DNA from: a virus
DNA: 64,000 nt
Virus record (IMG/VR): IMGVR_UViG_3300025093_000018
Span: 1-64,000 of that record
Strand: one strand, 5' to 3'
Position 1 is the first letter of the stretch. Each line of letters begins with the position of its first letter. Below, in pieces: positions 1,969 to 55,539 of the stretch. The notes below the pieces were generated by a model. It saw only the letters and a program-made list of their open reading frames with translations. It was not told the origin of the DNA and ran no database searches. Position numbers and translations under genes: made by a program.

Positions 1969-2031
1969 AAATACATTGTTTATGTCTGTTAATATACTAA
2001 AAATAGTCTAATATATTAAGGTTATAATAGT

Positions 2032-2063
2032 AAAAAAGCCTTGATTTTTATACCAAGGCTCTT
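2032..2063 (-). terminator. Intrinsic terminator
   Basis: Minus strand AGCCTTGG...TCAAGGCT followed by T-run, downstream of the 744-aa gene. Confidence 0.7.
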
Positions 2064-2101
2064 CGTCATATATTAAGTCTCTCCTACTTGAGAGTTATTT
2101 T

Positions 2102-4336: not shown

Positions 4337-4348
4337 GTAAGTGTTATC

Positions 4349-4639
4349 TTACAGTTTTCCGCCTAATTTAAACTTAGGAGCACCAGACATACGCATACCG
4401 TTTCTAGCCATAGGAGCAGCACCTTCAGGAGCAGGAGCACCTTGAGCAGCGCCTAACATAGCTACTAAAGTATCACAAATAGCCATAGCTAATTCTGGGT
4501 TAGGGTTTGCAGCATACTCTTGTAGCATACCTTCTACATCTGGTCCTTGAGGAGCAGCTGCAGGAGCAGCACCTGGTACAGGCCCACCAGCTTGGTGTTT
4601 AGTTACGTTTTCGCCGTAAGTGTTTAAATAATCTTTCAT
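4349..4639 (-). CDS. Small Ala/Pro-rich putative internal virion protein
   Basis: 96 aa; KHQAGG near the N-terminus and KFKLGG at the C-terminus. Confidence 0.5.
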   Translation of the reverse strand: MKDYLNTYGENVTKHQAGGPVPGAAPAAAPQGPDVEGMLQEYAANPNPELAMAICDTLVAMLGAAQGAPAPEGAAPMARNGMRMSGAPKFKLGGKL

Positions 4640-4709
4640 TTGATTTTTGTTTTATGTAATGATTATATTATGTATTTATATTAAAATTATTTCAAATTCG
4701 TATGGGTAA

Positions 4710-5336
4710 TTACTTGAATATAGAGCGTTTTACTCTTATCCAATAAATAGGTTCAGATCCTGAGACCAGAGGTTTTTCTATTGAAGTACCTATAATAGTT
4801 CTTTGCTTAATAGTCAAATCCAGATCTAAACTAACAGATTTTAAATCCCATTGATAAAGTCCTAAACCAGCTCCAGCGTATAACCCAAATGTTCTTTTCT
4901 TTACTACAGTAGTTTGTTTTTCCGTGTATTTAATCTGTAGATTGTCTAATTTAGGAAATAGATATCCTTCTGTAGAGTCTTTTTGTATAGATAGATCACC
5001 AGTAATTGATAAACTATCTCCAGTAGAAGATAAACTATCAGTTTCATATTTAAACTCTCTATCTACTGTTGGTACCTCAGCCTCTATTTGTTTCTCTATA
5101 TATGTTGTATCACCTGTAATAGAATCAATAACCGGAATATAAATTTTAACTGGAACTTCAATATATTCTTTAGGCCCTTCTTTGTATACAATTTTTTCTA
5201 CTGGAACTTCTACTATCTTTTCAATATATTCTACCTTTGGTTCAGATATATCACCATTACCACACCCTTTAAATGATGTAGCAATAACAGCCCCCAAAAC
5301 TAGTCCAATCACTAATATGATCCAATTGTTTTTCAC
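4710..5336 (-). CDS. Membrane-anchored lysis accessory protein (spanin-like)
   Basis: N-terminal TM/lipobox-like FKGC, VEVPVE stalk, C-terminal amphipathic beta strands; directly follows the endolysin. Confidence 0.5.
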   Translation of the reverse strand: MKNNWIILVIGLVLGAVIATSFKGCGNGDISEPKVEYIEKIVEVPVEKIVYKEGPKEYIEVPVKIYIPVIDSITGDTTYIEKQIEAEVPTVDREFKYETDSLSSTGDSLSITGDLSIQKDSTEGYLFPKLDNLQIKYTEKQTTVVKKRTFGLYAGAGLGLYQWDLKSVSLDLDLTIKQRTIIGTSIEKPLVSGSEPIYWIRVKRSIFK

Positions 5337-5920
5337 TCGAAGTCTGATTTGTTAAATAAGGTGTAGGTGAAGGTGCTACCGTATAATCCTGTACTTTTTT
5401 CAAGTAAGGGTATAAATTCTTTTTCAAACCTAGGTTTACTCTTAATAACCTGACACCCGGCCGAATTTTTTCCAATATATTTTGCACTCCAAGCATGGTG
5501 TATATTAGTATAAAAAATCCCTTCTTCAATGGTAGATGGGTCTAAATCGTGGTTTGTATCCTTATTATTATCTCTATATACTGGTATAGCTTTAAATTGT
5601 CTACCAGCTTTATATCTTTTCCTTCCGTGAGGACCTATTTTAAAGGCTCCTCTGTATTGACCTTCTACCATGATTGCACACCCAGTTTTTCTCATTGGAT
5701 TCTTTAACCAATGTGACCCTGGATCTGTAGTCGCCTCAAACGAAACTACTTGAAAACATCCGTCATTATTATAGTATGCAACACATATATAATCATCAAA
5801 TAAATTGGTATTTGTTTGCATTCTAATACCAAATACATTAATAGAGTAAGGGGCAGTAAAAAACTTATACCCCTTACAATCAAATGCTTTCTTTATATTT
5901 TCTTCTGATAAATCTATCAT
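5333..5920 (-). CDS. Putative endolysin, L,D-transpeptidase-like His/Cys fold
   Basis: GIR...FDD...TTDPG...GQY...NIH...SAGCQV motif set; lies between holin-like and spanin-like genes. Confidence 0.65.
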   Translation of the reverse strand: MIDLSEENIKKAFDCKGYKFFTAPYSINVFGIRMQTNTNLFDDYICVAYYNNDGCFQVVSFEATTDPGSHWLKNPMRKTGCAIMVEGQYRGAFKIGPHGRKRYKAGRQFKAIPVYRDNNKDTNHDLDPSTIEEGIFYTNIHHAWSAKYIGKNSAGCQVIKSKPRFEKEFIPLLEKSTGLYGSTFTYTLFNKSDFE

Positions 5921-45541: not shown

Positions 45542-47866
45542 TTAATACATTGGCTTTGGGTCATCAGGATCGGTCATATCTATCCATCTTACCCCACCAT
45601 GTTTTTTAAATTTTTCAGCTTCTAAGAATTGCTCCATCTCATTTCCTCCTTGACCTTTTTTCTCGGGAATTACTCCGTACCTTTTAATTCTACGACCGTC
45701 TGGTAACTTTTCTGTCCAATAACCAAAAGATTGTAATTGTTGAGTTTCTCTTACTGGTGGTTTAGCTACCTTACCCATTAAATCTTCATCTGATAATTCA
45801 CATAACCCCATAGCTATTACCATATCATACTTAGTACGATTATCTCTATCATAATCTTGTAGTTGAGCTAGTAAATCCGGAAACCATATTTTATCATAAC
45901 TATCATCAATATATGATTTAATTTTACCGTCCATATGATCAATAAGATAAGAACTTACCTGAGTACCTATTAAATTAGAGCTCTTCTTAGGGTCTCCCCC
46001 TTGTAAAGCAATAGATGGTCTCTTCTTTAGTAAGTGATAAAACCCCATATCTCTAAAATAACCAACAATACCAATTTTAGTATACTCTATATTTACTTGA
46101 GAGTTATAGTATATGGCCAGCTTAAGTGCATTACCCCAATCATCCCTAACATCGTCAGAACGTTTATTATATTTAGCAACATAAATATTTGATGTGTATT
46201 TAAAGTACCCTTTATCCACAACACGTTTTTTAACCATCATACAAAGTTCAGAACCTTTTTTATTATCTGTTGCGTAAGATGAATCAATATTACCTTGATC
46301 AATACTATCACAACCGGATACATATAAATCTTTCATTGGTTGTTTCTCGTCGTCAGGTAAATCTGTTATATCCTGCAACCAGTGTGGATGCTCTAGTATT
46401 TCTATATCACCAGTAGTTGGTGCTGGATCCCATTCTACCCCAATAATTTTACCATTCTCAGCTTGTTTCCATTTAAGGAAACCTCTACCAGGTTTTGGTA
46501 TATTATCTTTACCAAAGTCAATTGTGGTCCTTTGTGTGGCTATCTTATCCTGATCAAAGATATTTACTCCTGTACGTAAGAATACCTCTTTAATAGTCAT
46601 AGGGAATTCTTGTAGAAGCCCCATGTATGCAATTGGGTCTGATTTCTTCTTGGCTCTCTCTTCTTCCGTTTCCATTCTACCTAAAGCTACATCTGGGCAT
46701 CCACTATCTTCCCAAGTACCAGAACGTTTTATATGTGTTGGGATAAATATTCCACAACCTTTATCGCCAGCTTCTTCCCAATCCCATGTTGGTATACATT
46801 CACTAGCAATAGGATCCATAAATATCCCTTCTGCTTGATCATTTTCTACAGTACCTCCAGTCCCAGAATATAAAACTGTACATTTCTTCATACCACCCAT
46901 TACATACCAAGATCCTCTAGATTCTCTCATGCATGATTTAAGATCTCCTTTTTGTCCTGTAGGTGGGAACGCAGCAAACTCCTCTATTAACTGTATAGTA
47001 GGACGCTTACCCCTTGTCTTACCGGCGTTTTTACCATAAGTAATTTTTTCCATTTTAGCTAGATACCCTCTATCTTCTGTTGTACCATCTGGTAATTCTA
47101 CCACCTCTCCAGAATATTTCATTGTTAGCGAGTCGGTAATACGTTTATGTTTAAGAGCTCTATGTAACTTTTCAATAGCTGTTAAACATTCCTCAACCTT
47201 ATTCCAAGCCTCGGAAGTTGTTTCATCATTTGTAGAAGATACTACAGTCCAAGAGTTAGGGAATAATCTATATTCTCTATCCATAATCGAGCCCCATAGG
47301 TATGATTTACCTATACCACGACCTCCCATTAAAGATACATCTTGTTTTGTAAGTCTTGCCTTCCAAGCTATATCAAGTATATATCTATCGATATTACAAT
47401 AAAAAGGATGACCTGGGTCAAAATCAGGAACTAAGTTTCCGTCTTCATCATATTTTGGGACTGGGAATACAAAAACATTTAACCAGTAAACCATATAAGG
47501 ATTCCAATACTCACCATCAACCCAAACACCATGTTTACAATATTCTATAAGATCTCGATACCAATTCTCCATATCTAAAGAATCCGGATGATAAGCTGGT
47601 AAGTCTCTCCATTGTATTAGTTCTTTAGGTACAGGTCTATATACTAAGTAATCTTTTAAATTAATTTCTTCATTACCTGTTGGACAACCATATAATTTAT
47701 CTGGTACATCAGTAACATCAAACTCACCATTCATGATTTTTCCATCTTTCTTAACTAAGAAATCTAAATCAAACTTATCATAGTCATTTTCAAACGCAGC
47801 TCTTGGAAGTTTATTAATATCAATAAACTTTACCGGTTTTGGTTTATGTAATTCTCTAGTTGTCAT
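45542..47866 (-). CDS. terL: Terminase large subunit
   Basis: Walker A GRGIGKS, Walker B LIEEF, nuclease GCDSID and D.VIAMG. Confidence 0.9.
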   Translation of the reverse strand: MTTRELHKPKPVKFIDINKLPRAAFENDYDKFDLDFLVKKDGKIMNGEFDVTDVPDKLYGCPTGNEEINLKDYLVYRPVPKELIQWRDLPAYHPDSLDMENWYRDLIEYCKHGVWVDGEYWNPYMVYWLNVFVFPVPKYDEDGNLVPDFDPGHPFYCNIDRYILDIAWKARLTKQDVSLMGGRGIGKSYLWGSIMDREYRLFPNSWTVVSSTNDETTSEAWNKVEECLTAIEKLHRALKHKRITDSLTMKYSGEVVELPDGTTEDRGYLAKMEKITYGKNAGKTRGKRPTIQLIEEFAAFPPTGQKGDLKSCMRESRGSWYVMGGMKKCTVLYSGTGGTVENDQAEGIFMDPIASECIPTWDWEEAGDKGCGIFIPTHIKRSGTWEDSGCPDVALGRMETEEERAKKKSDPIAYMGLLQEFPMTIKEVFLRTGVNIFDQDKIATQRTTIDFGKDNIPKPGRGFLKWKQAENGKIIGVEWDPAPTTGDIEILEHPHWLQDITDLPDDEKQPMKDLYVSGCDSIDQGNIDSSYATDNKKGSELCMMVKKRVVDKGYFKYTSNIYVAKYNKRSDDVRDDWGNALKLAIYYNSQVNIEYTKIGIVGYFRDMGFYHLLKKRPSIALQGGDPKKSSNLIGTQVSSYLIDHMDGKIKSYIDDSYDKIWFPDLLAQLQDYDRDNRTKYDMVIAMGLCELSDEDLMGKVAKPPVRETQQLQSFGYWTEKLPDGRRIKRYGVIPEKKGQGGNEMEQFLEAEKFKKHGGVRWIDMTDPDDPKPMY

Positions 47867-48468
47867 TACTCTTCATCATCCCTAAACACGCCACGTTCTA
47901 TCATAGAACTTCCCTTATCTCCTCTAACTCTACCAACATTTTCTACTTTCTTAGCTGTTTCCTTGGCTTTTAACATACCAACTGCTAGTACTTCTAATTG
48001 TTTTACAAATCCAGCAATAGCTCTCTCATTAGTAACAACCTTATCTAGTTGACCGTCTTCATCATGAACAATCTCTATAAAGGGTTCTGTTTTATTTAAT
48101 AAAGCACTGATTTCATCAATTTTCTTTTGTTGTACCATAGCAGATCTTTCTAACGCATCCTCATTAAAGTAGTTGTATGCGTCCATAGCAGCATCTATAA
48201 GACTCTGTTCTTTATTAGTGAATGATGTTTTATTGATAGGACCTAGAGCTCTGACCATGGCTTGTCTAGGTTTTTCGCGGTAGTCTACATCTTTCATAGG
48301 ATTGCTGTTTGTAAGATCACAACAATAAAATACGTATAATAACATACGCATGCCTAGCTCTTCTTTGTTCTTTTTACTAGCGTATTCAAGGATATTAGTA
48401 AATTCCTCAATCATAGCTAATTTAGGATCAATAGCTAGTTTACCACCAAGTAGTGTAAACGATATCAT
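47866..48468 (-). CDS. Putative terminase small subunit
   Basis: Helical 200 aa, coupled directly upstream of terL, C-terminal RVRG. Confidence 0.45.
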   Translation of the reverse strand: MISFTLLGGKLAIDPKLAMIEEFTNILEYASKKNKEELGMRMLLYVFYCCDLTNSNPMKDVDYREKPRQAMVRALGPINKTSFTNKEQSLIDAAMDAYNYFNEDALERSAMVQQKKIDEISALLNKTEPFIEIVHDEDGQLDKVVTNERAIAGFVKQLEVLAVGMLKAKETAKKVENVGRVRGDKGSSMIERGVFRDDEE

Positions 48469-48491
48469 ATTCTTCTTATTATCTTATATTA

Positions 48492-48710
48492 TTATTTCGA
48501 ATGTACTAAATCTTTAGTATTAAAGATCTGTTCTTGATATTCTCCTTTATTTGTAAACCAAAAACATAAAACACCCATTAGCTGAGGTTTATTAGTCTTC
48601 TCATCTTTCATTCGACTTTTCTTGATCTCTTTAACGATCATTTGAGGTCTAAACATAATTTCCTGTTTCAACTCTACAACTTCTCCAGGAACAAAATATA
48701 CCATACTCAT
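48492..48710 (-). CDS. YodC/DUF2158-like small protein
   Basis: F.PGEVVELK...P.M.V...V.C.WF...F...L pattern. Confidence 0.6.
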   Translation of the reverse strand: MSMVYFVPGEVVELKQEIMFRPQMIVKEIKKSRMKDEKTNKPQLMGVLCFWFTNKGEYQEQIFNTKDLVHSK

Positions 48711-48814
48711 AACTTATTAACATTAAAATTTATATTACTTTAATATAAGAAAGTTTTTAATAAGGTCAATGGGATTCGCGATTCGCGTATTGCATATCGT
48801 GATATGGAATATTG

Positions 48815-48887
48815 TTACCCCGCTAGGACTCGAACCCAGATCTGCGGGGCCGTAACCCACTGTTTTATCCAATTAAACTACAAGGCA
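48815..48887 (-). tRNA. tRNA-Arg(ACG)
   Basis: Cloverleaf; anticodon arm GTGGG-TTACGGC-CCCGC; GGTTCGAGTCC T-arm. Confidence 0.9.
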
Positions 48888-48893
48888 ATATAG

Positions 48894-48964
48894 AGCACCT
48901 GGTAGGATTCGAACCTACGTCTGAGGTTTTGCAGACCCCTGCCTAGCCACTCGGCCACAGGTGC
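48894..48964 (-). tRNA. tRNA-Cys(GCA)
   Basis: GCACCTG/CAGGTGC acceptor, U73, CT-GCA-AA loop. Confidence 0.92.
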
Positions 48965-48968
48965 GTAG

Positions 48969-49039
48969 CACGACAGGAAGGATTCGAACCTTCATGATAC
49001 GGTTTTGGAGACCGATCAGCACAACCTACGCTCTGAAGT
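48969..49039 (-). tRNA. tRNA-Trp(CCA), atypical acceptor and D arm
   Basis: CT-CCA-AA loop, good T-arm, G73; two acceptor mismatches. Confidence 0.75.
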
Positions 49040-49107
49040 AAATATTGTTATTTATATCCGATTAGTAAGGTTATAAGTGACTAACCAGATATAAATAACA
49101 AGTTTTG

Positions 49108-49190
49108 TAGCCGGGGCGGGAATCGAACCCGCACGTCCTAGGGACAACGGATTTTAAGTCCGTCGCGTCTACCTGTTCCGCCACCCGGCC
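49108..49190 (-). tRNA. tRNA-Leu(TAA)
   Basis: ACGGA-CTTAAAA-TCCGT, long variable arm, A73. Confidence 0.93.
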
Positions 49191-49252
49191 ATAGATTATA
49201 TTTGTTTCATTACCATTCACGTACAGTGAACAGGGACTTTTATTGAACATTG

Positions 49253-49333
49253 TAGCTTCGGTGGGATTCGAACCCACAAACCTCTTGCTTCTAAGGCAAG
49301 GTACTCTTCCATTCGTCTTTACGGCACGAAGCT
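49253..49333 (-). tRNA. tRNA-Leu(TAG), short variable loop, enlarged D region
   Basis: AGCTTCG/CGAAGCT acceptor; CTTGC-CTTAGAA-GCAAG. Confidence 0.8.
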
Positions 49334-49338
49334 ATTTG

Positions 49339-49414
49339 TAGCCCTAGAGAGGATCGAACTCTCTTTTCCGCAGTGAAAACGCGACGTCCTAACCAACAAT
49401 TAGACGATAGGGCC
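49339..49414 (-). tRNA. tRNA-Glu(TTC)
   Basis: GGCCCTA/TAGGGCT acceptor; TT-TTC-AC loop. Confidence 0.88.
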
Positions 49415-49421
49415 ATAAAAC

Positions 49422-49449
49422 AAAAAACCCCGGTGGTTACCGAGGTTCT
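49422..49449 (-). terminator. Attenuator terminator of tRNA operon 1
   Basis: AGAACCTCGGT-AACC-ACCGGGGTTTTTT, ending 7 nt upstream of tRNA-Glu. Confidence 0.85.
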
Positions 49450-49490
49450 TTAGTGTTTAACTTTAAAACTTTAAATTATGTCAATCAAAT

Positions 49491-49577
49491 TCAAATATCT
49501 TTAGCGCATACACCAGAACCTCCGTTGGATTCTTCCAACAGCCATAAACAAAGTTCTAATGTGCGTAATGTTTTCAT
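49491..49577 (-). CDS. Leader peptide 1 MKTLRTLELCLWLLEESNGGSGVCAKDI
   Basis: Hand translation; codons 4-16 are L,R,E,C,W except one Thr; contains antiterminator GAGGTTCTGGTGT. Confidence 0.8.
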   Translation of the reverse strand: MKTLRTLELCLWLLEESNGGSGVCAKDI

Positions 49578-49581
49578 ATTG

Positions 49582-49589
49582 CAAATTTA
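49582..49589 (-). promoter_or_regulatory. Bacteroidota -7 promoter element TAAATTTG
   Basis: Matches TAnnTTTG; 4 nt before the leader ATG. Confidence 0.7.
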
Positions 49590-49616
49590 ATAATAAAATT
49601 TAAAAGTAAAATGGGG

Positions 49617-50063
49617 TTAATCGTAAACTCGAACTTCTATAGTGTGATTTTTATAAAACTCGTTATTTACATAAGTTCCAGCAGAGTTAACCATTTCATA
49701 ATAAATAGTATTTACATCTTCCCAATACGCTAATACGTGACTATTACCATTTTGTGCTGTATTATTATGAAAAACTGCAGTTTTACCTTCTGTAAATACT
49801 CCAGCTAAGGTCATATAATAACCACCTGGGTACCCAGCATAACTCCAAACAGGTGTTCCTCCTAAAGTATTTTCTAATACAGTAGCATCAGGAGCACTAG
49901 TACCTGATTGTGTTAATGTTGCTGTATATACTCTATAGGGTCTTACAGTCTTATTGGCTAAAGCTATAAGTTCCTCTCTAAGTCTATTAATATCTTTTAC
50001 ATCTTTACCAGTATGTTGTATATTGGCTTTGATAGAATCTGTAGTATCAGATACTTGTCCCAT
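49617..50063 (-). CDS. Putative structural/fibre-tip protein
   Basis: YRVYTATLTQSGTSAP...LENTLG...IEVRVY domain. Confidence 0.55.
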   Translation of the reverse strand: MGQVSDTTDSIKANIQHTGKDVKDINRLREELIALANKTVRPYRVYTATLTQSGTSAPDATVLENTLGGTPVWSYAGYPGGYYMTLAGVFTEGKTAVFHNNTAQNGNSHVLAYWEDVNTIYYEMVNSAGTYVNNEFYKNHTIEVRVYD

Positions 50064-50089
50064 AATTGATTATTTTTAATTAAATTTTA

Positions 50090-50524
50090 TTAACTCTTAA
50101 CTGACCAATCAATTACCATTGCAGCGTCTAATGCGTTAGAAGCGTGAGCATTAAAGATCTTAATAGTAAGGGTATCATCTGTAGGCTCTACTTTAGAGAT
50201 TACAGGCATTCCAGCTCCTGTATAACTAGAGATTACAGCTGTAACAATTGAACCTGTAGTTAGTAAAGTATTAGAAATAGTTAATACAGTTGCTTCTGTA
50301 AGAGCAGCAGTTGATAACGCAGCAGTAGTAGATTTACCAACTGAGTTATTTAATGTAGGTGTTGCACCTGTTGTTGTGTTGTCTGAAGCTTCACCTGTTA
50401 AGTAGTTAGCTACATCAGTCATGAAGTTTCTAAGGGTCGTAGTAAAATCTTTTCTATCTGAATTGTATTGTAAGTCAGCTAAGATTCTAGTTTTAAGACC
50501 CGCGGATCCTGTAATAGTTGCCAT
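50090..50524 (-). CDS. Putative head fibre/decoration protein
   Basis: Thr/Ala-rich 144 aa, codon bias of a highly expressed gene. Confidence 0.5.
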   Translation of the reverse strand: MATITGSAGLKTRILADLQYNSDRKDFTTTLRNFMTDVANYLTGEASDNTTTGATPTLNNSVGKSTTAALSTAALTEATVLTISNTLLTTGSIVTAVISSYTGAGMPVISKVEPTDDTLTIKIFNAHASNALDAAMVIDWSVKS

Positions 50525-50625
50525 AATTTTTTATTTAAAATATTAATTAATATTGTTTATACGACTAAAGAATACAAAAATTTATCGTAAATACAAGGTT
50601 AATTACAAACTATTTAATTTAAGTA

Positions 50626-52890
50626 TTATTTATAAGGTAATAGATTACTCTTTTTTACTGAGTTTGTTTTAAATTCTGGTAATGTATAAGCATTTCCAGT
50701 CTTTAAATAATCTTGTAACTGGGTAAACTTCTCTTTAATCTTGGTATCTTTTAAATATACTTCTCTAGCTTTAGGCCAATATCTAGCCTTTTCAAACTCT
50801 TCTTCAGTTCCTTCAAACATTAATCCCCTGATCTGTCCATCTATCCAATTCTCTTTAAACTGCTCTTTACCATCTCCCTCTCCATAATCTTCCTTAGACA
50901 TTTCCCAATCACGCTCAAAATCTCCTTTATGTTTTTCCAAGAAAGCATCCTCAAATTCTTTTCTATGTTTTTTGTACACTTTATCACTAGTCATACCATG
51001 CATCATATCTAACATGATAGACTGCTCGTTGTTAGTTTTAGGGTCATAGACTATACCATGAGTACCAGGTTTAGGGTGATCATATGAATATCCACTATAA
51101 TAAGTTACTTTTTCTCGTCCTTCTTTAGGACTGAAATACTCTATACTACCAACACCAGTCTTATCTCTTGTGAACTCTGGGTCAGATTTTATAGTAACTT
51201 CACCCATGTTTTTAAATGCTGGATATTTATTATAGATGTTATCAAGCATTACCCCACCTTGTTGATACTTCAATAACACTCCTCCATTCCTTTTTGATTG
51301 TATTGATACAGCTCCAGATACTCCCACCAAAGGTGTTGTAGTGTAAACAGCATTTAAAAACTGTTTTAGGTCTTTTTTATCTAAATTCACTACTAAATTA
51401 GTAATATCATTTGGTAAATCTCCTCCTATTCTACTGCTAGATTTTAATTGATCAATGGCTGCATCAGATATATCCCCACCACTCCATAAGCCCTTTTCTT
51501 TTAGATAGGATAGAGCTCTAACACCTCTAACTTGTTGTTCTGGTTTTTTATTTAAATATTCTATTGTACGAATAACTTGTGGATTATCAGATTGTTGTCG
51601 TATAGTTTTAAAAGGTATCCCTTTCATACTATAGTCAATATTATACGTATTTGAGGCGTGTATAAATTCATGGTTAGCTATATTACTTAACTCCTTATTA
51701 TTAACGTTTTTATCTATACCTAACCAAACATGCGGGTTTTCATCTATAGTAGAAGAAAATCCTAACTGTCTAGTATCTACCCCGGTCATATCTTTATACG
51801 TAACTTCAGTTTTATTTAACTTATGTAAAGCTATTGCTCTAGCTCTCTTAGCATCAGCCTTACTTTCTTTGGCTACAGACATTCTACGTTTTAACCATTC
51901 ATCTGATTTTAACCAATTTTCTTGTTCTTTAAATGCTTTTTGTACTACCTCCAAATTCTTCTTACTTGGTATCACAGTAGGTGTGTTTAATAAATCTTTC
52001 TTTTTATATAATTGCTTATTTATAATATGTTGTTGTTTATCTTTTGGAGACTTTTTAACTATTTCCCAAAACTCTCTATCTTTTGATGTTAATAATTTAA
52101 TTTTATCATTTGATAATTTTAATATATCATCAACTGACTTAATATTATTAGTATTTGTATTTAAAGCGTCATATACATTTTTTACACTACCATCCTGATT
52201 ATAATGTATAGTTCTCTTTGTATCTATCTTTGCTTTACCTTCTGGGGATAAAAAAGAATTAAATATTTCCTCTTCTTTACTATAAATCGGTTTCTTTTTA
52301 GATAAATAAGGTTCTAATTTAGGGTCAAGAGTTGTTTTATTTAGTTTAGGATATATAACTGTTCCTTTATATACTTTAGGTGAAGGGGATTTTCTTAGTA
52401 ATCCTAAACCACTCTTACTTACAGGTTTAACATACTTACCAAGTTTAAGAGTATGCGCTGCTGCACCTATTTCTGGGGCTACAGCAATTACATCTAAAGC
52501 TTGATCAACACCTTCCCAATAAGGGCTCTTAGTGATAGGATTTACATAAGACATTTGAGCGTACATAGCTGAACCTGGGTTTGCGTACATAGTTAAATCT
52601 GCGGCAGTCTTCGCGGTACCTTTTGCTGTCCCTACAGGGTCATCTATAATTCTTGTCATAGAATTAAACGGTGTTATATCACCTAAAAAATTCATAACAC
52701 TATGACCTATTTGATCTAATTCTTCAGTTGTAGACTTAGATTTAACTGTAAATTCTGATAAATCAGGTGCCTGATAAACATCTGTTTTAGGGTTATACTT
52801 AGTTACGGTACCTTTTTTATAAGCTTTTTTATAATCAGAAGTTCCGTATTTAATCCCGCCACCTTTTTGGTATTTTAATAATATACCCAT
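50626..52890 (-). CDS. Multidomain putative cargo protein with zincin-like HExxH
   Basis: ANHEFIHAS...EQQVR; KYQKGG at the N-terminus and KRNGGVLLKYQQGG before the last domain. Confidence 0.6.
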   Translation of the reverse strand: MGILLKYQKGGGIKYGTSDYKKAYKKGTVTKYNPKTDVYQAPDLSEFTVKSKSTTEELDQIGHSVMNFLGDITPFNSMTRIIDDPVGTAKGTAKTAADLTMYANPGSAMYAQMSYVNPITKSPYWEGVDQALDVIAVAPEIGAAAHTLKLGKYVKPVSKSGLGLLRKSPSPKVYKGTVIYPKLNKTTLDPKLEPYLSKKKPIYSKEEEIFNSFLSPEGKAKIDTKRTIHYNQDGSVKNVYDALNTNTNNIKSVDDILKLSNDKIKLLTSKDREFWEIVKKSPKDKQQHIINKQLYKKKDLLNTPTVIPSKKNLEVVQKAFKEQENWLKSDEWLKRRMSVAKESKADAKRARAIALHKLNKTEVTYKDMTGVDTRQLGFSSTIDENPHVWLGIDKNVNNKELSNIANHEFIHASNTYNIDYSMKGIPFKTIRQQSDNPQVIRTIEYLNKKPEQQVRGVRALSYLKEKGLWSGGDISDAAIDQLKSSSRIGGDLPNDITNLVVNLDKKDLKQFLNAVYTTTPLVGVSGAVSIQSKRNGGVLLKYQQGGVMLDNIYNKYPAFKNMGEVTIKSDPEFTRDKTGVGSIEYFSPKEGREKVTYYSGYSYDHPKPGTHGIVYDPKTNNEQSIMLDMMHGMTSDKVYKKHRKEFEDAFLEKHKGDFERDWEMSKEDYGEGDGKEQFKENWIDGQIRGLMFEGTEEEFEKARYWPKAREVYLKDTKIKEKFTQLQDYLKTGNAYTLPEFKTNSVKKSNLLPYK

Positions 52891-52928
52891 ATCTAGGTAA
52901 TGTACAAAAAATTATTAAAAATATAAAG

Positions 52929-53002
52929 TACTCCCGGTAGGATTCGAACCTGGAACCGTCCCCTTAGAAGGGGGATGCTCTATCCAGTTGAGCTACGGGG
53001 CC
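52929..53002 (-). tRNA. Chimeric tRNA-Arg(TCT), probably a fusion of two tRNA genes
   Basis: Perfect D and anticodon arms (TCCCC-CTTCTAA-GGGGA) but T-stem CCAGG/CCTAC and acceptor GGCCCCG/CGGGAGT mispair. Confidence 0.75.
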
Positions 53003-53006
53003 AAAT

Positions 53007-53040
53007 AAAAAAGCCCCGGAACTTTGTAGTCCGAGGCTTC
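53007..53040 (-). terminator. Attenuator terminator of tRNA operon 2
   Basis: GAAGCCTCGGACT-ACAA-AGTTCCGGGGCTTTTTT just upstream of tRNA-Arg. Confidence 0.85.
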
Positions 53041-53064
53041 CTGTTATATATGAATTATTCTTAC

Positions 53065-53157
53065 TTACATATTTACAAATACAGATAGCCGCGGACTCCG
53101 TCTCGAATCGACAGTTCCGTTACTCTTAATGCCTGTATTTATAATTATTGCTTGCAT
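53065..53157 (-). CDS. Leader peptide 2 MQAIIINTGIKSNGTVDSRRSPRLSVFVNM
   Basis: Hand translation; contains antiterminator AGTCCGCGGCTATCTGT; preceded by near-consensus TTATATTGC. Confidence 0.78.
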   Translation of the reverse strand: MQAIIINTGIKSNGTVDSRRSPRLSVFVNM

Positions 53158-53189
53158 GTTGATTGCAATATAAATATTAAATTTTAAAC

Positions 53190-53789
53190 CTAAAAGGTCT
53201 TAGAATAATTTTTTAGCTTTTCTTTATCAGAACTTGAAAATTTAGATGAGTAGGTTAGGTTACCTTCTTCGCTCATTATATAATCCTCTGTACCACTATG
53301 GTATAAACCAAATAGATGTCCAAACTCATGTATAATAACCCTTGAACAATCCTTATTCGAATCCTGAAGACTGAGATCTACAAGGGCTACAGCCTTTAAA
53401 GTACCTATACAGTTAGTATGAGCTGCTCCTATAACATCTTCGTCACTTCTACCTGTAATATACAAACTTATATCGGCCCAATTATTAGTTAACCTTTTAA
53501 TAGAGGCTATTACAGAAAGATACGGGTTATAATCACTACCTCCATATGTAAAGGTAGAAATTTTAAAGTGGATGCCTACTTGAGCATATACATTATTAAC
53601 GTGGATCATAATCTCTTTAAGATCACTATAAGTTTTACTGGATGTGGTATCTACAAAGATATTTACGTTATAATGTTGGGTAGCTACTAACTCCTGCGCA
53701 TTAGATTTCAACACAGGATCAATTTTATATTGCCCTAGTAATGTAAAGCTGCAAACAAATAAGGCTAAAAATAATAAAAGTTTTTTCAT
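53190..53789 (-). CDS. Secreted metzincin (reprolysin/M12-like) metalloprotease
   Basis: Signal peptide; HEFGHLFGLYH plus Met-turn YIMS. Confidence 0.8.
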   Translation of the reverse strand: MKKLLLFLALFVCSFTLLGQYKIDPVLKSNAQELVATQHYNVNIFVDTTSSKTYSDLKEIMIHVNNVYAQVGIHFKISTFTYGGSDYNPYLSVIASIKRLTNNWADISLYITGRSDEDVIGAAHTNCIGTLKAVALVDLSLQDSNKDCSRVIIHEFGHLFGLYHSGTEDYIMSEEGNLTYSSKFSSSDKEKLKNYSKTF

Positions 53790-53859
53790 AATTTAAATCA
53801 TATTTACATTCTCATAGTACTAAGGTAACACTTTTTATTTGAATAAAAAAGTGTAATTG

Positions 53860-53930
53860 TTACCAGGAGAGGATTCGAACCTCTACCTTCTGGACCAAAA
53901 CCAGACGTCCTGCCATTAGACCACCCGGCA
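53860..53930 (-). tRNA. tRNA-Gln(TTG)
   Basis: TCTGG-TTTTGGT-CCAGA; U1-A72. Confidence 0.92.
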
Positions 53931-53936
53931 ATTTTG

Positions 53937-54009
53937 TGGACGAGGGCGGATTCGAACCACCGACGCTAGGCTCTTCAGGCCCACGCTCTACCAACTGAGC
54001 TACTCGTCC
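53937..54009 (-). tRNA. tRNA-Phe(GAA)
   Basis: GGACGAG/CTCGTCC; CT-GAA-GA loop. Confidence 0.93.
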
Positions 54010-54016
54010 AGTTTAG

Positions 54017-54104
54017 GGTGTACGATGGGATTCGAACCCATGACGTGTCACTAACCGTACCGGGACCACAACCCAGCGCCTTCGACCGCTTGGCTACGCA
54101 CACC
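54017..54104 (-). tRNA. tRNA-His(GTG) with G-1 and an 18-nt variable arm
   Basis: G-1:C73; TT-GTG-GT loop; variable region TACGGTTAGTGACACGTC. Confidence 0.87.
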
Positions 54105-54110
54105 ATGTAG

Positions 54111-54192
54111 TGGGACCGGGAGGACTCGAACCTCCAAGCCGTTAGGACCCGGGTTACAACCGGGGACGCTACCAATTACGCTCTACGTTCCC
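54111..54192 (-). tRNA. tRNA-Tyr(GTA)
   Basis: CCCGG-TTGTAAC-CCGGG; extended variable arm; A73. Confidence 0.88.
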
Positions 54193-54308
54193 ATATTATA
54201 TACGATCACATATAATCCCCGATATATCAGGTAATTTTATAATATTATACCCGCTATAGCATGGTTTTATATGTTTTACATATATTATACCCTAATAGGT
54301 ATAATTTG

Positions 54309-54382
54309 TGGAGCTACCGGGATTCGAACCCGGAACCTCTTCCGTGCAAAGGAAGCGCTCTTCCAGTTAGAGCTACAGCCCC
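54309..54382 (-). tRNA. tRNA-Ala(TGC)
   Basis: G3:U70; CTTCC-TTTGCAC-GGAAG. Confidence 0.93.
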
Positions 54383-54387
54383 ATATG

Positions 54388-54461
54388 TAGCGGGGGCGAG
54401 ATTCGAACTCGCGTCCTTCGGGTTATGAGCCCGACGTCCTAGACCCCTAGACCACCCCGCT
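54388..54461 (-). tRNA. tRNA-Met(CAT), initiator-like
   Basis: Three G:C pairs in the anticodon stem (TCGGG/CCCGA); A1-U72 pair. Confidence 0.88.
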
Positions 54462-54464
54462 AAG

Positions 54465-54537
54465 TCGAGTGAGCTGGATTCGAACCAGCGAATTCGTGCT
54501 CCCAAAGCACGCCCGTATAGCCTCTGCGTACCACTCG
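54465..54537 (-). tRNA. tRNA-Pro(TGG), atypical D arm
   Basis: C1-G72, A73; CGTGC-TTTGGGA-GCACG. Confidence 0.83.
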
Positions 54538-54545
54538 ATATAATA

Positions 54546-54577
54546 CAAAAAGCCCGAACTCTTTAAGAATCCGGGCT
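54546..54577 (-). terminator. Attenuator terminator of tRNA operon 3
   Basis: AGCCCGGATTCT-TAA-AGAGTTCGGGCT followed by TTTT, upstream of tRNA-Pro. Confidence 0.85.
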
Positions 54578-54604
54578 AATCAGCTTAGTATATGTATGAT
54601 CACA

Positions 54605-54682
54605 TTATAACACACTAATATCACCCAGAGAGCTAAAGGCCATCGGCTGAAAATAAAATGCGTTATGTTGTGTTTTTCTCAT
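54605..54682 (-). CDS. Leader peptide 3 MRKTQHNAFYFQPMAFSSLGDISVL
   Basis: Hand translation; codons 5-16 are Q,H,A,F,Y,P,M except one Asn; contains antiterminator TCTGGGTGATATTAGTGTGT. Confidence 0.8.
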   Translation of the reverse strand: MRKTQHNAFYFQPMAFSSLGDISVL

Positions 54683-54715
54683 TGAAGTTATTTCTTCGTT
54701 TTGTTTATCGTACTG

Positions 54716-54723
54716 CAAATATA
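54716..54723 (-). promoter_or_regulatory. Bacteroidota -7 promoter element TATATTTG
   Basis: Exact TAnnTTTG upstream of leader 3. Confidence 0.7.
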
Positions 54724-54762
54724 AATATATGTTTTTAATCTACAAGGTACTAAATAAAAATT

Positions 54763-55494
54763 TTAAATATCTGTTACATCAGGTAATGCTTTATATGTCT
54801 TCAATTCTTCTTCAGCCTTTAATCTAAGCTGTCTCTCCTTCAACCCCATAGATTTCCATTTGGCCTCACTTTGTACAGCTCTAGAGTACTCGTATTCGGC
54901 TTCATCTATTACTACAGCATAGATATTTATTGTGTCTTCATCAGATACATGGCCTAACGATTTAAGCTTTTTAGCTAAATCATTTAAAGCTTTATTTGTA
55001 AAACCACAGGGCTTGACTCTGTTACTTTTTGCATCATTAAATTCTATCTCCTTGCCTGTTTTTACCGTATAGATGTATAGTTGTCCTATCATTAACTTCT
55101 CTTCCCAGGTAAGATTCTTTGAATTAAGAAAAGCACTGGGGATCTTCATCACATCTCTATAACTACTGCTTACTCTATACTTGCCATTAGATATCTTCCC
55201 AAGGACACCGAGTTCTTCAAGATCTTTAAAAGCTCTTTTGATCGTACTAAGTGATGCTCCAGTAATTTCCGCTATCTCAGACCTATTAGGCAATGTTAAG
55301 GTATTTGATCTCGAATCATAAACACCTATTGTTTTAAGTATGGCTAGTACCATTAATTGTTTTGGATAATTAATAAAACCATCAGGTAATGTTACATACC
55401 CTCCGGTTCTTAATGTGGCTTTCATACCACCAACCCCTTTAAAGGTTACAGGACTTCCGTCGTCCTTTAGTGCATTAAACTTCTTCATTTCCAT
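54763..55494 (-). CDS. Winged-HTH protein, putative replication initiator
   Basis: RSEIAEITGASLSTIKRAFKDLEELG HTH, second NLTWEEKL module; adjacent iterons; TATATTTG (55499-55506) 4 nt before the ATG. Confidence 0.6.
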   Translation of the reverse strand: MEMKKFNALKDDGSPVTFKGVGGMKATLRTGGYVTLPDGFINYPKQLMVLAILKTIGVYDSRSNTLTLPNRSEIAEITGASLSTIKRAFKDLEELGVLGKISNGKYRVSSSYRDVMKIPSAFLNSKNLTWEEKLMIGQLYIYTVKTGKEIEFNDAKSNRVKPCGFTNKALNDLAKKLKSLGHVSDEDTINIYAVVIDEAEYEYSRAVQSEAKWKSMGLKERQLRLKAEEELKTYKALPDVTDI

Positions 55495-55539
55495 AATGCA
55501 AATATAAGGAAAATTAATGAATTAAAAAAGGTTCATTTT

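What the first reader, a model, noticed from the sequence alone, without database searches (positions are those of the whole stretch)
48815..54723. Three phage tRNA operons each gated by a codon-matched leader-peptide attenuator: a candidate on-demand tRNA-replacement system covering all 20 amino acids
Seen: each tRNA cluster on the minus strand has the same layout: TAnnTTTG-type promoter, 25-30 aa ORF, spacer, strong intrinsic terminator, then tRNAs within 10 nt. The 3' part of each ORF is complementary to the 5' arm of its terminator (antiterminator). The sensing windows of the three leaders are LRTLELCLWLLEE, QHNAFYFQPMAF and IIINTGIKSNGTVDSRR. They split the 20 amino acids into R/L/E/C/W, Q/H/A/F/Y/P/M and I/N/T/G/K/S/V/D(+R). 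The first two sets are exactly the tRNAs encoded downstream. Established: trp/his/pheST-type attenuation uses ribosome stalling on leader codons to choose antiterminator over terminator, and host anticodon nucleases (PrrC, RloC, PARIS AriB, VapC-type toxins) destroy tRNAs during phage infection. Inference: a ribosome reaching the stop codon covers the antiterminator so transcription stops; stalling on any depleted or cleaved tRNA frees it, and the phage transcribes the operon holding the replacement. This is a multiplexed sensor whose output is tRNA rather than enzymes. I know of no description of this for phage tRNA arrays.
Basis: partly seen in the sequence, partly recalled or inferred. Interest (0 to 1): 0.96.

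Follow-up and report, generated by a model that had tools for sequence, protein, structure and literature searches.

The report
Codon-matched attenuators gating phage tRNAs
In this marine phage, blocks of tRNA genes sit behind tiny test genes written in the amino acids those tRNAs carry and wired to a switchable stop signal, so the phage probably makes tRNAs only when ribosomes slow down on the matching codons; in one of the three units most of the tRNAs have since been lost.

Summary
On the minus strand there are three units, each made of a short ORF, a strong intrinsic terminator and then tRNA genes. Leaders 1 and 3 are the top scorers among 559 ORFs for the amino-acid sets of their own arrays (11 of 12 residues each). 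Their cross-scores are 1-2.

Related phage contigs carry the same three leader families. A more distant lineage splits the amino acids differently among its arrays, and its leaders follow that split. The true leader-array pairing is the single best of 5184 permutations.

In 19 of 19 units the leader segment just after the matched codons is the best partner of the terminator's 5' arm. Each window leader alone folds into a hairpin that hides this segment. Together these give a four-region, trp-like attenuator.

Leader 2 is orphaned: relatives have Lys...Val tRNAs behind it, whereas this phage has one damaged tRNA-Arg and three cargo ORFs. A ribosome parked at the stop codon does not cover the antiterminator.

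The link to anticodon nucleases is untested. There is no expression data. Six literature searches found no published description. This scan has reported the same design before on other DNA.

The parts
54716..54723 (-). Bacteroidota-type -7 promoter-like motif (TAnnTTTG) of unit 3, about 30 nt before the leader ATG
   Evidence: Exact motif match. A similar motif stands before the leader-3 homologues in L013 and L035. The motif alone is at chance frequency in the window (81 vs 81), so the promoter is inferred.
54605..54682 (-). Leader ORF 3 (25 codons plus stop). Codons 5-16 are the sensing window for Gln, His, Ala, Phe, Tyr, Pro and Met.
   Evidence: unique top of 559 ORFs: 11 of 12, 7 of 7 kinds. 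(11 of 16 for its own array against 1 and 1). Homologues in L013, L032, L035 and L090.
54622..54630 (-). Core of the antiterminator strand (region 2) of unit 3, in codons 18-21
   Evidence: Best duplex with the terminator's 5' arm is -11.2 kcal/mol, z -1.9, shuffle p 0.06. This is the weakest of the three. An extended two-helix antiterminator appears in constrained folds.
54550..54577 (-). Intrinsic terminator of unit 3 (12-bp stem plus T run)
   Evidence: -17.5 kcal/mol.
53859..54537 (-). tRNA array 3: Pro(TGG), Met(CAT), Ala(TGC), a 115-nt spacer, then Tyr(GTA), His(GTG), Phe(GAA), Gln(TTG)
   Evidence: ARAGORN. Rfam 30.6-69 bits.
53065..53157 (-). Leader ORF 2 (30 codons plus stop). Its window of Ile, Asn, Thr, Gly, Lys, Ser, Val, Asp and Arg codons is orphaned in this phage.
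   Evidence: 0 of 16 match to its own array here, but its homologues score 16, 13 and 12 of 16 against their arrays in L012, L013 and L035. Alignment.
53083..53098 (-). Antiterminator strand (region 2) of unit 2, in codons 20-25
   Evidence: Duplex with the terminator's 5' arm is -17.7 kcal/mol, z -4.4, 0 of 300 shuffles as good.
53009..53040 (-). Intrinsic terminator of unit 2 (bulged stem plus T run)
   Evidence: -17.7 to -18.4 kcal/mol. Missed by the simple scan.
52928..53002 (-). tRNA-Arg(TCT) with a damaged 3' half
   Evidence: ARAGORN and Rfam 41 bits. Acceptor stem 5 of 7 pairs and T-stem 3 of 5 pairs, against 7 of 7 and 5 of 5 in L012, L013, L032 and L035.
49617..52890 (-). Three ORFs (754, 144 and 148 aa) standing where relatives carry the Lys...Val tRNA block
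   Evidence: No Pfam or PHROG family. No tblastn match in any TerL-related locus. No tRNA-like match in this stretch.
49582..49589 (-). TAnnTTTG promoter-like motif of unit 1, 4 nt before the ATG (a leaderless mRNA is likely)
   Evidence: The same 4-6 nt spacing is seen in L012, L013, L035, L061 and L080.
49491..49577 (-). Leader ORF 1 (28 codons plus stop). Codons 4-16 are the sensing window for Leu, Arg, Glu, Cys and Trp.
   Evidence: unique top of 559 ORFs: 11 of 12, 5 of 5 kinds. (12 of 16 for its own array against 0 and 1). Homologues in L012, L013, L015 and L035.
49514..49526 (-). Antiterminator strand (region 2) of unit 1, in codons 18-22
   Evidence: Duplex with the terminator's 5' arm is -15.3 kcal/mol, z -4.5, 0 of 300 shuffles as good.
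49419..49452 (-). Intrinsic terminator of unit 1 (14-bp stem plus T run)
   Evidence: -17.4 kcal/mol.
48814..49414 (-). tRNA array 1: Glu(TTC), Leu(TAG)-like with a short variable arm, Leu(TAA), Trp(CCA), Cys(GCA), Arg(ACG)
   Evidence: The Trp gene (25 bits) and the Leu(TAG)-like gene (27 bits) are below Rfam's cut-off of 29.

Best explanation
Each unit is a ribosome-mediated (leader-peptide) transcription attenuator that controls tRNA genes.

Proposed steps:
1. A promoter fires just upstream of a 25-30-codon ORF.
2. The first part of the ORF, about codons 4-17, is written in codons for the amino acids served by the tRNAs downstream. It also forms one strand (region 1) of a stable hairpin with the 3' part of the ORF (region 2).
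3. Region 2 can pair instead with the 5' arm of the terminator (region 3).
4. If decoding is fast, the ribosome runs through and the 1:2 hairpin re-forms behind it, or region 2 is still covered. Region 3 then pairs with region 4 and transcription stops a few bases before the first tRNA.
5. If any of the sampled codons is decoded slowly, the ribosome stalls on region 1. Region 2 captures region 3 and RNA polymerase reads into the tRNA block.
6. The new tRNAs relieve the stall, which closes a negative feedback loop.

What is shown:
- the anatomy;
- the frame-specific codon match;
- its co-variation with array content in relatives;
- the position and co-variation of region 2;
- the alternative folds.

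What is inferred:
- that the ORFs are translated;
- the promoters;
- the kinetics and the sign of the response.

In this phage unit 2 is a relic. Its leader, switch and terminator are intact, but its tRNA block is gone apart from one damaged tRNA-Arg, and read-through would now run into three cargo ORFs.
For: 1. Specific match. Leaders 1 and 3 are the unique best of 559 ORFs for their own arrays' amino-acid sets. The match holds only in the ORF frame: 177, 73 and 56 of 256 own-array matches in frames 0, 1 and 2 over 16 units.

2. Relatives. 77 TerL-related loci were fetched. With the window, this gives 19 leader-plus-terminator units in 9 sources. For the 16 units in sources with at least 2 units, 15 leaders match their own array best. 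Own-array matches are 177 of 256 at amino-acid level and 144 of 256 at codon level. The true pairing is the single best of 5184 joint within-genome permutations.

3. Co-variation.
- L061 and L080 (TerL about 41% identical) partition the amino acids differently: Pro/Glu/Gln/His/Leu/Arg; Ala/Lys/Ile/Gly/Met/Asp/Thr/Val/Arg; Tyr/Ser/Asn/Trp/Phe (L080) or Tyr/Ser/Asn/Cys/Trp (L061). Their leaders follow these partitions.
- L080 lacks the Lys and Arg(TCT) tRNAs, and its leader B lacks Lys and Arg codons.
- L013 lacks tRNA-Arg(ACG), and its leader 1 has no Arg codon.
- L032 lacks tRNA-Pro, and its leader 3 has no Pro codon in the matched stretch.

4. Switch.
- The best duplex between the leader and the terminator's 5' arm lies at codons 15-31 in 19 of 19 units, and starts at codons 15-21 in 18 of 19.
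- Shuffle p is at most 0.02 in 12 of 19 units and at most 0.05 in 14 of 19.
- The paired sequences differ between relatives while complementarity is kept.

5. Folds.
- The full leaders fold as the 1:2 hairpin plus the terminator, with P(terminator) 0.90-0.96.
- Before region 3 exists, each leader forms the 1:2 hairpin at -28.5, -25.4 and -26.0 kcal/mol.
- With a ribosome footprint on codons up to about 15 (unit 1) or 17 (unit 2), region 3 is paired with region 2. It is freed when the footprint covers region 2.

6. Coding constraint. Gaps inside the sensing windows of the family alignments are multiples of three, and start codons are kept.
Against: - There is no expression, ribosome-profiling or 3'-end data.
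- Translation of the ORFs is inferred only.
- At equilibrium the terminators win in most stalled states for units 1 and 3. P(terminator) falls only to 0.32-0.77 for stalls at codons 9-13 of unit 1 and to 0.45-0.80 for codons 8-10 of unit 3. The switch must therefore be kinetic, which folding cannot show.
- The antiterminator of unit 3 is weak (p 0.06). Five of 19 units are not better than shuffles at p 0.05.
- The last 2-4 matched codons lie so close to region 2 that a ribosome stalled there should hide it.
- Leader content does not always track the array. L032 keeps His, Phe, Tyr and Met codons with only the Ala and Gln tRNAs behind it. L013 and L035 keep Lys, Val or Ile codons without those tRNAs. 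The window's leader 2 matches 0 of 16.
- Asn in leader 3 and Thr in leader 1 are conserved although no tRNA for them is in the same array.
- The 16 units fall into at most six homologous leader families in two lineages, so they are not independent.
- A promoter inside array 3 (the 115-nt spacer before tRNA-Tyr) cannot be excluded. One search lists a sigma-70-like site there.
- Bacteroides phage crAss001 has no such units, so the design is not general among crAss-like phages.
Confidence: 0.75

Rival explanations
1. The circuit is the same, but its role is specifically counter-defence. It lies silent until a host anticodon nuclease or tRNA-depleting system cuts host tRNAs, and then supplies replacements.
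For: The circuit would respond to any loss of decoding capacity for the sampled codons (inference). From my own recall rather than any call, phage tRNAs are known to counter tRNA-targeting defences.
Against: - Nothing in the window or its relatives links the units to a defence system.
- The sensor reads total charged tRNA, so codon-usage mismatch, shut-off of host tRNA synthesis or amino-acid shortage would trigger it equally.
- In this phage, 8 of the 20 amino acids sampled have no replacement tRNA on the contig.
Confidence: 0.15
2. The leader is translated and senses the codons, but the output is not termination read-through. A stalled or passing ribosome would change RNA processing or stability, for example access of RNase P or RNase E to the precursor, or Rho action.
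For: - The terminators abut the first tRNA (5-13 nt), so the hairpin is part of the pre-tRNA 5' leader.
- Equilibrium folds do not show a clean switch for units 1 and 3.
Against: - All units have a canonical G+C-rich stem plus T run.
- They also have a region-2 strand that competes for the terminator's 5' arm, at a conserved place and with co-varying sequence.
- That is the hallmark of termination control and is not needed for a processing model.
Confidence: 0.07
3. The small ORFs are not sensors. They are chance ORFs, or small functional peptides, beside ordinary terminators that insulate the tRNA genes.
For: - Parts of the peptide sequences are conserved, including residues with no tRNA in the same array (Asn in leader 3, Thr in leader 1).
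- TAnnTTTG is not enriched in the window.
Against: - Each of the two leaders ranks first of 559 ORFs for its own array's set.
- The match is frame-specific.
- The true pairing is the best of 5184 permutations, and leader content changes with array content in a lineage with another partition.
- The C-terminal halves of the peptides vary freely while keeping RNA complementarity to the terminator.
Confidence: 0.03

Closest known systems
Leader-peptide (ribosome-mediated) transcription attenuators of amino-acid operons: trpL, hisL, pheL, leuL and the multivalent thrL and ilvL (named from my own knowledge; search listings only)
   Same: - A short translated leader with regulatory codons.
- Four pairing regions (1:2, 2:3, 3:4).
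- An intrinsic terminator just before the regulated genes.
- Stalling on the regulatory codons favours the antiterminator.
- Several amino acids are sampled in one leader, as in thr and ilv.
   Different: - The regulated genes are tRNAs, not biosynthetic enzymes, so the product acts directly on the stalled ribosome.
- Five to ten different amino acids are sampled, mostly with one to three codons each rather than runs of one codon.
- Region 2 lies inside the ORF, 5-7 codons before the stop.
- At least unit 1 looks leaderless.
- The host is a phage of a lineage without Shine-Dalgarno-led initiation (inferred).
pheST and thrS-type control of translation-apparatus genes by leader translation (recalled, not checked in a call)
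   Same: A component of the decoding machinery is regulated by how fast its own codons are read.
   Different: Those units sample one amino acid and regulate synthetase genes, not tRNA genes.
T-box riboswitches
   Same: Both sense tRNA status and switch between a terminator and an antiterminator in a 5' leader.
   Different: - T-boxes bind uncharged tRNA directly and need no ORF.
- No T-box match appears among the 25 Rfam matches of the sensitive search of 48000-55500.
The long tRNA array (trn operon) of Anabaena sp. PCC 7120, silent until translation is stressed (PMC8421152, PMC10272220)
   Same: It is an accessory tRNA array that is switched on when translation is impaired.
   Different: - By the title and abstract start in the listing, control there is by the transcriptional repressor TrcR.
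- The words 'attenuat' and 'leader' occur 0 times in the main text of PMC8421152, and 'attenuat' and 'leader peptide' 0 times in that of PMC10272220 (find mode only).
Earlier reports of this scan on other phages (e1-3258323, e1-3450868, e1-3412744, e1-4038560, e1-5618024)
   Same: They describe the same design: a mini-ORF spelling the repertoire of the array behind it, followed by a terminator-antiterminator switch.
   Different: - They concern other genomes and are AI notes that I did not check.
- New here are a three-way split of all 20 amino acids, an orphaned leader whose array was lost, and a sister lineage with a re-partitioned code.

Membership tests
Leader-peptide transcription attenuators | A short ORF in the transcribed leader, between the promoter and the terminator | tested here: met
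   - ORFs of 25, 30 and 28 codons lie 24-38 nt upstream of the terminators.
- The ORFs are conserved in relatives, with in-frame gaps only inside the sensing windows.
- Translation itself is not testable with these tools.
Leader-peptide transcription attenuators | Regulatory codons for the monitored amino acid(s) are enriched in the leader | tested here: met
   - Units 1 and 3 score 11 of 12 in their best windows and rank first of 559 ORFs.
- 15 of 16 units match their own array best.
- The window's unit 2 meets this only with respect to the array present in relatives.
Leader-peptide transcription attenuators | An intrinsic terminator between the leader ORF and the regulated genes | tested here: met
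   Hairpins of -17.4 to -17.7 kcal/mol, each followed by a T run, end 5-13 nt before the first tRNA.
Leader-peptide transcription attenuators | An antiterminator pairing (2:3) that excludes the terminator | tested here: met
   - Duplex energies are -15.3 (z -4.5), -17.7 (z -4.4) and -11.2 (z -1.9, p 0.06) kcal/mol for units 1, 2 and 3.
- The position is conserved in 19 of 19 units.
- Unit 3 is marginal.
Leader-peptide transcription attenuators | An anti-antiterminator pairing (1:2) whose 5' strand is covered by a ribosome stalled on the regulatory codons | tested here: met
   - The minimum-free-energy folds pair codons about 4-9 (and 12-16 in unit 2) with the region-2 side.
- Footprint-constrained folds free region 2 for stalls up to about codon 15-17.
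Leader-peptide transcription attenuators | The regulated genes are amino-acid biosynthesis or synthetase genes | tested here: not met
   The genes behind the terminators are tRNAs. This is the point of novelty, so I describe the units as working like this family rather than as ordinary members of it.
Leader-peptide transcription attenuators | Read-through rises when the cognate charged tRNA is scarce | not testable with these tools
T-box riboswitch | A match to the T-box leader model (specifier loop and T-box sequence) | tested here: not met
   No T-box hit appears among the 25 matches at E up to 1 in 48000-55500.
Crassvirales-like phage (context) | Terminase, portal and capsid proteins related to those of crAss-like phages | tested here: inconclusive
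   - TerL is 21-27% identical to crAss-like phage terminases, the only named relatives found.
- PHROG families for TerL, portal and head protein match.
- No taxonomic assignment was attempted.

The most novel reading that the evidence does not exclude
The three units form a code-wide monitoring system. Between them, the leaders sample all 20 amino acids, and each switches on the block of tRNAs for its own share. tRNA genes can be reshuffled between blocks as long as the leader is rewritten to match, as the sister lineage shows. In this phage the orphaned leader 2 has been co-opted: it now turns on protein-coding cargo (the 754-, 144- and 148-aa ORFs) when the host's Ile, Asn, Thr, Gly, Lys, Ser, Val or Asp decoding fails. 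That would make it a translation-stress-inducible switch for non-tRNA genes, born from a tRNA attenuator.
Probability: 0.15. Interest if true: 0.9.

Novelty: new variant of a known kind. Interest (0 to 1): 0.85.

Why it matters
- tRNA genes are generally treated as constitutively or growth-rate controlled. A translation-speed sensor that gates tRNA genes, with the product feeding back on the sensor, would be a new regulatory logic for the decoding machinery.
- It would show that phages measure the host's decoding capacity codon by codon.
- It would explain how phages carry large tRNA sets without paying for them all the time.
- It gives a rule for annotating tiny ORFs before tRNA arrays, and for predicting lost or unassembled arrays from the leader alone, as for unit 2 here.
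- It offers compact natural parts for multi-codon translation sensors.
- It makes the question of when and why phage tRNAs are needed testable with simple reporter fusions.

Tried and rejected
- Close relatives by DNA: blastn of 48700-54800 against 50,697 phage records gave 0 records covering at least 80% of the query. The hits were short partial matches, annotated mostly as tRNAs plus one DUF285 protein stretch.
- Single-protein scans of IMG/VR: the 754-aa ORF gave one locus without tRNAs. The 243-aa ORF gave none.
- A leader-2 DNA pattern in IMG/VR returned only the three loci already known.
- Sequencing runs: no RNA holder was listed. There were two DNA rows, one of them probably the source sample.
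- The equilibrium folding model of a clean ON/OFF switch was rejected as too simple, because the terminators stay favoured in many stalled states.
With the footprint at the stop, region 3 is still paired upstream at 0.71, 0.89 and 0.68.
- TAnnTTTG enrichment was rejected as evidence: 81 found and 81 expected. Only two motif-N4-ATG cases exist with ORFs of at least 20 codons.
- Bacteroides phage crAss001 was looked at as a possible cultured model. None of its tRNA-region gaps shows a leader ORF followed by a terminator.
- Column-wise covariation counting on the MAFFT alignments was not attempted. Region 2 is misaligned by one column between relatives, so I used an alignment-free duplex test instead.
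- The relaxed ARAGORN call of the odd gene at 49252-49333 as Arg(CCT) was rejected in favour of a Leu(TAG) orthologue.
- Supplementary files of papers were not consulted.

Rows left out of the permutation test:
- L015, L032 and L090, which have one unit each.
- L034, which has no leader within the contig.
- tRNA calls that ARAGORN could not name.
- For the last unit of each locus, tRNA calls more than 1000 nt beyond the array.
Low-score ARAGORN calls on the transcribed strand were included.

Full report
**What the window is.** The window is the first 64,000 nt of an 80,990-nt IMG/VR virus record. Its G+C content is 33.5%, and CheckV estimates it at 42% complete. A DNA run of a marine metagenome holds the stretch in full. 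A long minus-strand block encodes the large terminase (45542-47866), the portal protein and the major head protein. The only named relatives of the terminase are crAss-like phages, at 21-27% identity. No close relative is in the phage collection.

**Anatomy.** Reading the minus strand from 54,723 downwards, there are three units.
- **Unit 3:**
  - An exact TAnnTTTG motif at 54716-54723.
  - A 25-codon ORF at 54605-54682.
  - A 12-bp terminator at 54550-54577 (-17.5 kcal/mol).
  - From 54537, tRNAs Pro, Met, Ala, a 115-nt spacer, then Tyr, His, Phe, Gln.
- **Between units 3 and 2:** a 199-aa ORF with reprolysin/matrixin-type Pfam matches.
- **Unit 2:**
  - A 30-codon ORF at 53065-53157.
  - A bulged terminator at 53009-53040 (-17.7 kcal/mol).
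  - tRNA-Arg(TCT) at 52928-53002.
- **Between units 2 and 1:** three ORFs of 754, 144 and 148 aa without family matches.
- **Unit 1:**
  - TAnnTTTG at 49582-49589, only 4 nt before the ATG.
  - A 28-codon ORF at 49491-49577.
  - A 14-bp terminator at 49419-49452 (-17.4 kcal/mol).
  - From 49414, tRNAs Glu, a Leu(TAG)-like gene, Leu(TAA), Trp, Cys, Arg(ACG).
- **Weak calls in array 1:**
  - The Glu gene is missed by default ARAGORN but scores 49 bits with Rfam.
  - Trp (25 bits) and the Leu(TAG)-like gene (27 bits) are below Rfam's cut-off of 29.
  - The Leu(TAG)-like gene aligns with the Leu(TAG) genes of relatives, with an invariant anticodon loop, and has a short variable arm like those of L012 and L013.

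**Is the codon match more than chance?**
- I scored all 559 ATG ORFs of at least 15 codons in the genome for their best 12-residue window against each array's amino-acid set.
- Leader 1 is the unique top scorer for the set of array 1 (11 of 12, all five kinds present).
- Leader 3 is the unique top scorer for the set of array 3 (11 of 12, all seven kinds present).
- The crossed scores are 1 and 2.
- The two sets make up 19% and 26% of the residues in the phage's long ORFs.
- The match exists only in the ORF frame.
- Leader 2 is different. Its codons 2-17 match its own array, tRNA-Arg alone, 0 times out of 16.
It passes over one Thr in leader 1 and one Asn in leader 3.

**Relatives.**
- A profile of 36 terminase homologues retrieved 77 loci from IMG/VR. 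Most have no tRNAs, so the arrays are an accessory island.
- Loci L012, L013, L015, L032/L033, L034 and L035 (TerL 62-69% identical) have arrays in the same place, just upstream of two conserved small genes and the terminase.
- L012, L013, L015, L032 and L035 carry homologues of the window's leaders; the L034 contig begins inside array 1, so no leader is within it. Contig L090 carries another leader-3 copy.
- Behind the leader-2 homologues stands tRNA-Arg(TCT), then a gap or small ORF, then (Lys) Met, Gly, Asp, Asn, Ser, Ser, Thr, (Ile, Val). This is exactly the set that leader 2 of the window spells.
- These homologues match their arrays in 16, 13 and 12 of 16 codons.

**What happened to the array of unit 2.**
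- The three ORFs in its place have no tblastn match in any related locus.
- No tRNA remnant is found among them.
- The surviving tRNA-Arg has only 5 of 7 acceptor pairs and 3 of 5 T-stem pairs. Its orthologues in L012, L013, L032 and L035 have 7 of 7 and 5 of 5.

**An independent partition.**
- Two more distant loci, L061 and L080 (TerL about 41% identical), have leader-terminator-array units in which the amino acids are dealt out differently.
- One block holds Pro, Glu, Gln, His, Leu, Arg.
- One block holds Ala, (Lys), Ile, Gly, Met, Asp, Thr, Val, (Arg).
- One block holds Tyr, Ser, Asn and Trp, with Phe in L080 or Cys in L061.
- Their leaders follow these sets: 11 and 14 of 16 in L061, and 9, 14 and 11 of 16 in L080.
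- L080 lacks the Lys and Arg(TCT) tRNAs, and its leader has no Lys or Arg codon, unlike L061.

**Permutation test.**
- It covers the 16 units in the six sources with at least two units.
- 15 leaders match their own array best.
- The true pairing (177 of 256 matches) is the single best of all 5184 within-genome permutations, whose mean is 86 and next best 169.
- The codon-level count with conservative wobble rules gives the same result, at 144 of 256.
- Smaller events agree. L013 has neither tRNA-Arg(ACG) nor an Arg codon in leader 1. L032 has neither tRNA-Pro nor the Pro codon in leader 3.

**Against perfect tracking.**
- L032 keeps His, Phe, Tyr and Met codons with only the Ala and Gln tRNAs left.
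- L013 and L035 keep Lys, Val or Ile codons whose tRNAs ARAGORN does not find.
- The window's leader 2 is fully orphaned.
- Arrays therefore decay faster than leaders are rewritten.
- The units belong to at most six homologous families, so the permutation p-value overstates independence.

**The switch.**
- For each of the 19 units I asked where, between the ORF start and the terminator, the terminator's 5' arm finds its best partner.
- The partner lies at codons 15-31 in 19 of 19 units and starts at codons 15-21 in 18 of 19. The exception is an ORF called from an upstream alternative start.
- This is directly after the matched codons.
- It beats 300 dinucleotide shuffles at p of 0.02 or less in 12 of 19 units and at p of 0.05 or less in 14 of 19.
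- For the window the values are -15.3 kcal/mol (z -4.5), -17.7 (z -4.4) and -11.2 (z -1.9, p 0.06) for units 1, 2 and 3.
- The paired sequences differ between relatives while complementarity is kept.

**Folds.**
- The full leaders fold into a long hairpin between the sensing window (region 1, about codons 4-9, plus 12-16 in unit 2) and the region-2 side, together with the terminator. P(terminator) is 0.90-0.96.
- Before region 3 is made, this 1:2 hairpin is already worth -28.5, -25.4 and -26.0 kcal/mol. The later gain from switching to the antiterminator is only 3-5 kcal/mol. The default state is therefore plausibly OFF by kinetic trapping.
- With a 28-nt footprint placed codon by codon on RNA truncated after region 3, the pairing of region 3 depends on where the ribosome sits:

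| Unit | Ribosome upstream of region 2 | Footprint covering region 2 |
|---|---|---|
| 1 | 0.64-0.77 (A site at codons 1-15) | 0.2-0.3 |
| 2 | 0.78-0.85 (A site at codons 1-17) | 0.4-0.5 |
| 3 | 0.38-0.86 (codons 1-14; 0.6-0.86 from codon 3) | 0.5-0.6 (little contrast) |

- A ribosome at the stop codon leaves region 2 free (0.71, 0.89 and 0.68).
- At equilibrium on the full RNA the terminator often still wins. As in the classical attenuators, the decision must be kinetic, and folding cannot prove it.

**Other points.**
- Indels inside the sensing windows of the family alignments are multiples of three.
- The windows are far better conserved at the nucleotide level than their flanks. This fits a double constraint of codon identity and 1:2 pairing.
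- On the minus strand, no TAnnTTTG lies between any terminator and its tRNAs. A sigma-70-like site in the spacer before tRNA-Tyr leaves an internal start possible.
- No RNA data were available.

**Comparison with what is known.**
- The units work like leader-peptide attenuators. They meet every structural criterion I could test, but they regulate tRNA genes.
- They sample five to ten amino acids each, and region 2 lies inside the ORF.
- They are not T-boxes.
- Six full-text searches gave no paper that describes leader-peptide attenuation of tRNA genes.
- The nearest case is the stress-induced tRNA operon of Anabaena. By the title and abstract start seen in the listing, it is controlled by a repressor. 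Of the two papers I saw only term counts and two passages in find mode: 'attenuat' and 'leader' occur 0 times in PMC8421152, and 'attenuat' and 'leader peptide' 0 times in PMC10272220.
- The library lacks most subscription journals, and supplements were closed.
- This scan has reported the same design on other phage genomes. I did not check those notes.
- Bacteroides phage crAss001 does not have the design.

**Verdict.**
- The attenuator reading is well supported by comparative and structural evidence (confidence 0.75).
- The claim of a 20-amino-acid replacement system does not hold for this phage, because unit 2 has lost its cargo.
- The anti-defence role is speculation.

Noticed in passing
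window 52928-53002 (-): tRNA-Arg(TCT) has mismatches confined to its 3' half. Its acceptor stem has 5 of 7 pairs and its T-stem 3 of 5, whereas four orthologues are perfect. This suggests a chimera left by the deletion that removed the Lys...Val tRNA block.
   Followed up: partly
window 49252-49333 (-); L012 2102-2175; L013 5505-5578: The tRNA-Leu(TAG) genes of this phage group come in two forms. L015 and L061 have a long variable arm. The window, L012 and L013 have a short one, which is unusual for a bacterial-type tRNA-Leu.
   Followed up: partly
G000 69853-69965 (+), beyond the window's end: A tRNA-like gene (Rfam 46 bits) carries a 38-nt insertion in the anticodon arm. ARAGORN reads it as an intron-containing tRNA with anticodon CGA on a type I body.
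   Followed up: no
G000 73243-73678 (+), beyond the window's end: ARAGORN calls a permuted tmRNA here with a long tag peptide.
   Followed up: no
window 53190-53789 (-): A 199-aa ORF with a hydrophobic N-terminus and zinc-metallopeptidase matches (Reprolysin_3, Peptidase_M10) sits between tRNA arrays. Weaker relatives stand at the same place in L032 and L033, directly before tRNA-Arg(TCT).
   Followed up: partly
window 49617-52890 (-): Three ORFs (754, 144 and 148 aa) have no Pfam or PHROG family and no counterpart in 77 related loci. The C-terminal part of the 754-aa protein is 53% identical to a protein on an unrelated viral contig (L001).
   Followed up: partly
window 55499-55506 and 54763-55494 (-): The 243-aa DnaD/RepL-like gene has TAnnTTTG exactly 4 nt before its ATG, like leader 1. 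This hints at leaderless mRNAs in this phage.
   Followed up: partly
proteins P0005, P0014, P0038, P0040, P0044, P0059: Several terminase homologues are about 350 residues longer and carry the Pfam family PF14528. This suggests (my reading, not checked) an intein or homing-endonuclease insertion in the terminase of some relatives.
   Followed up: no
L092 (MH675552) 1400-5810: The tRNA region of Bacteroides phage crAss001 has a promoter-like motif directly before its first tRNA. No leader ORF followed by a terminator was seen in any of its gaps.
   Followed up: yes
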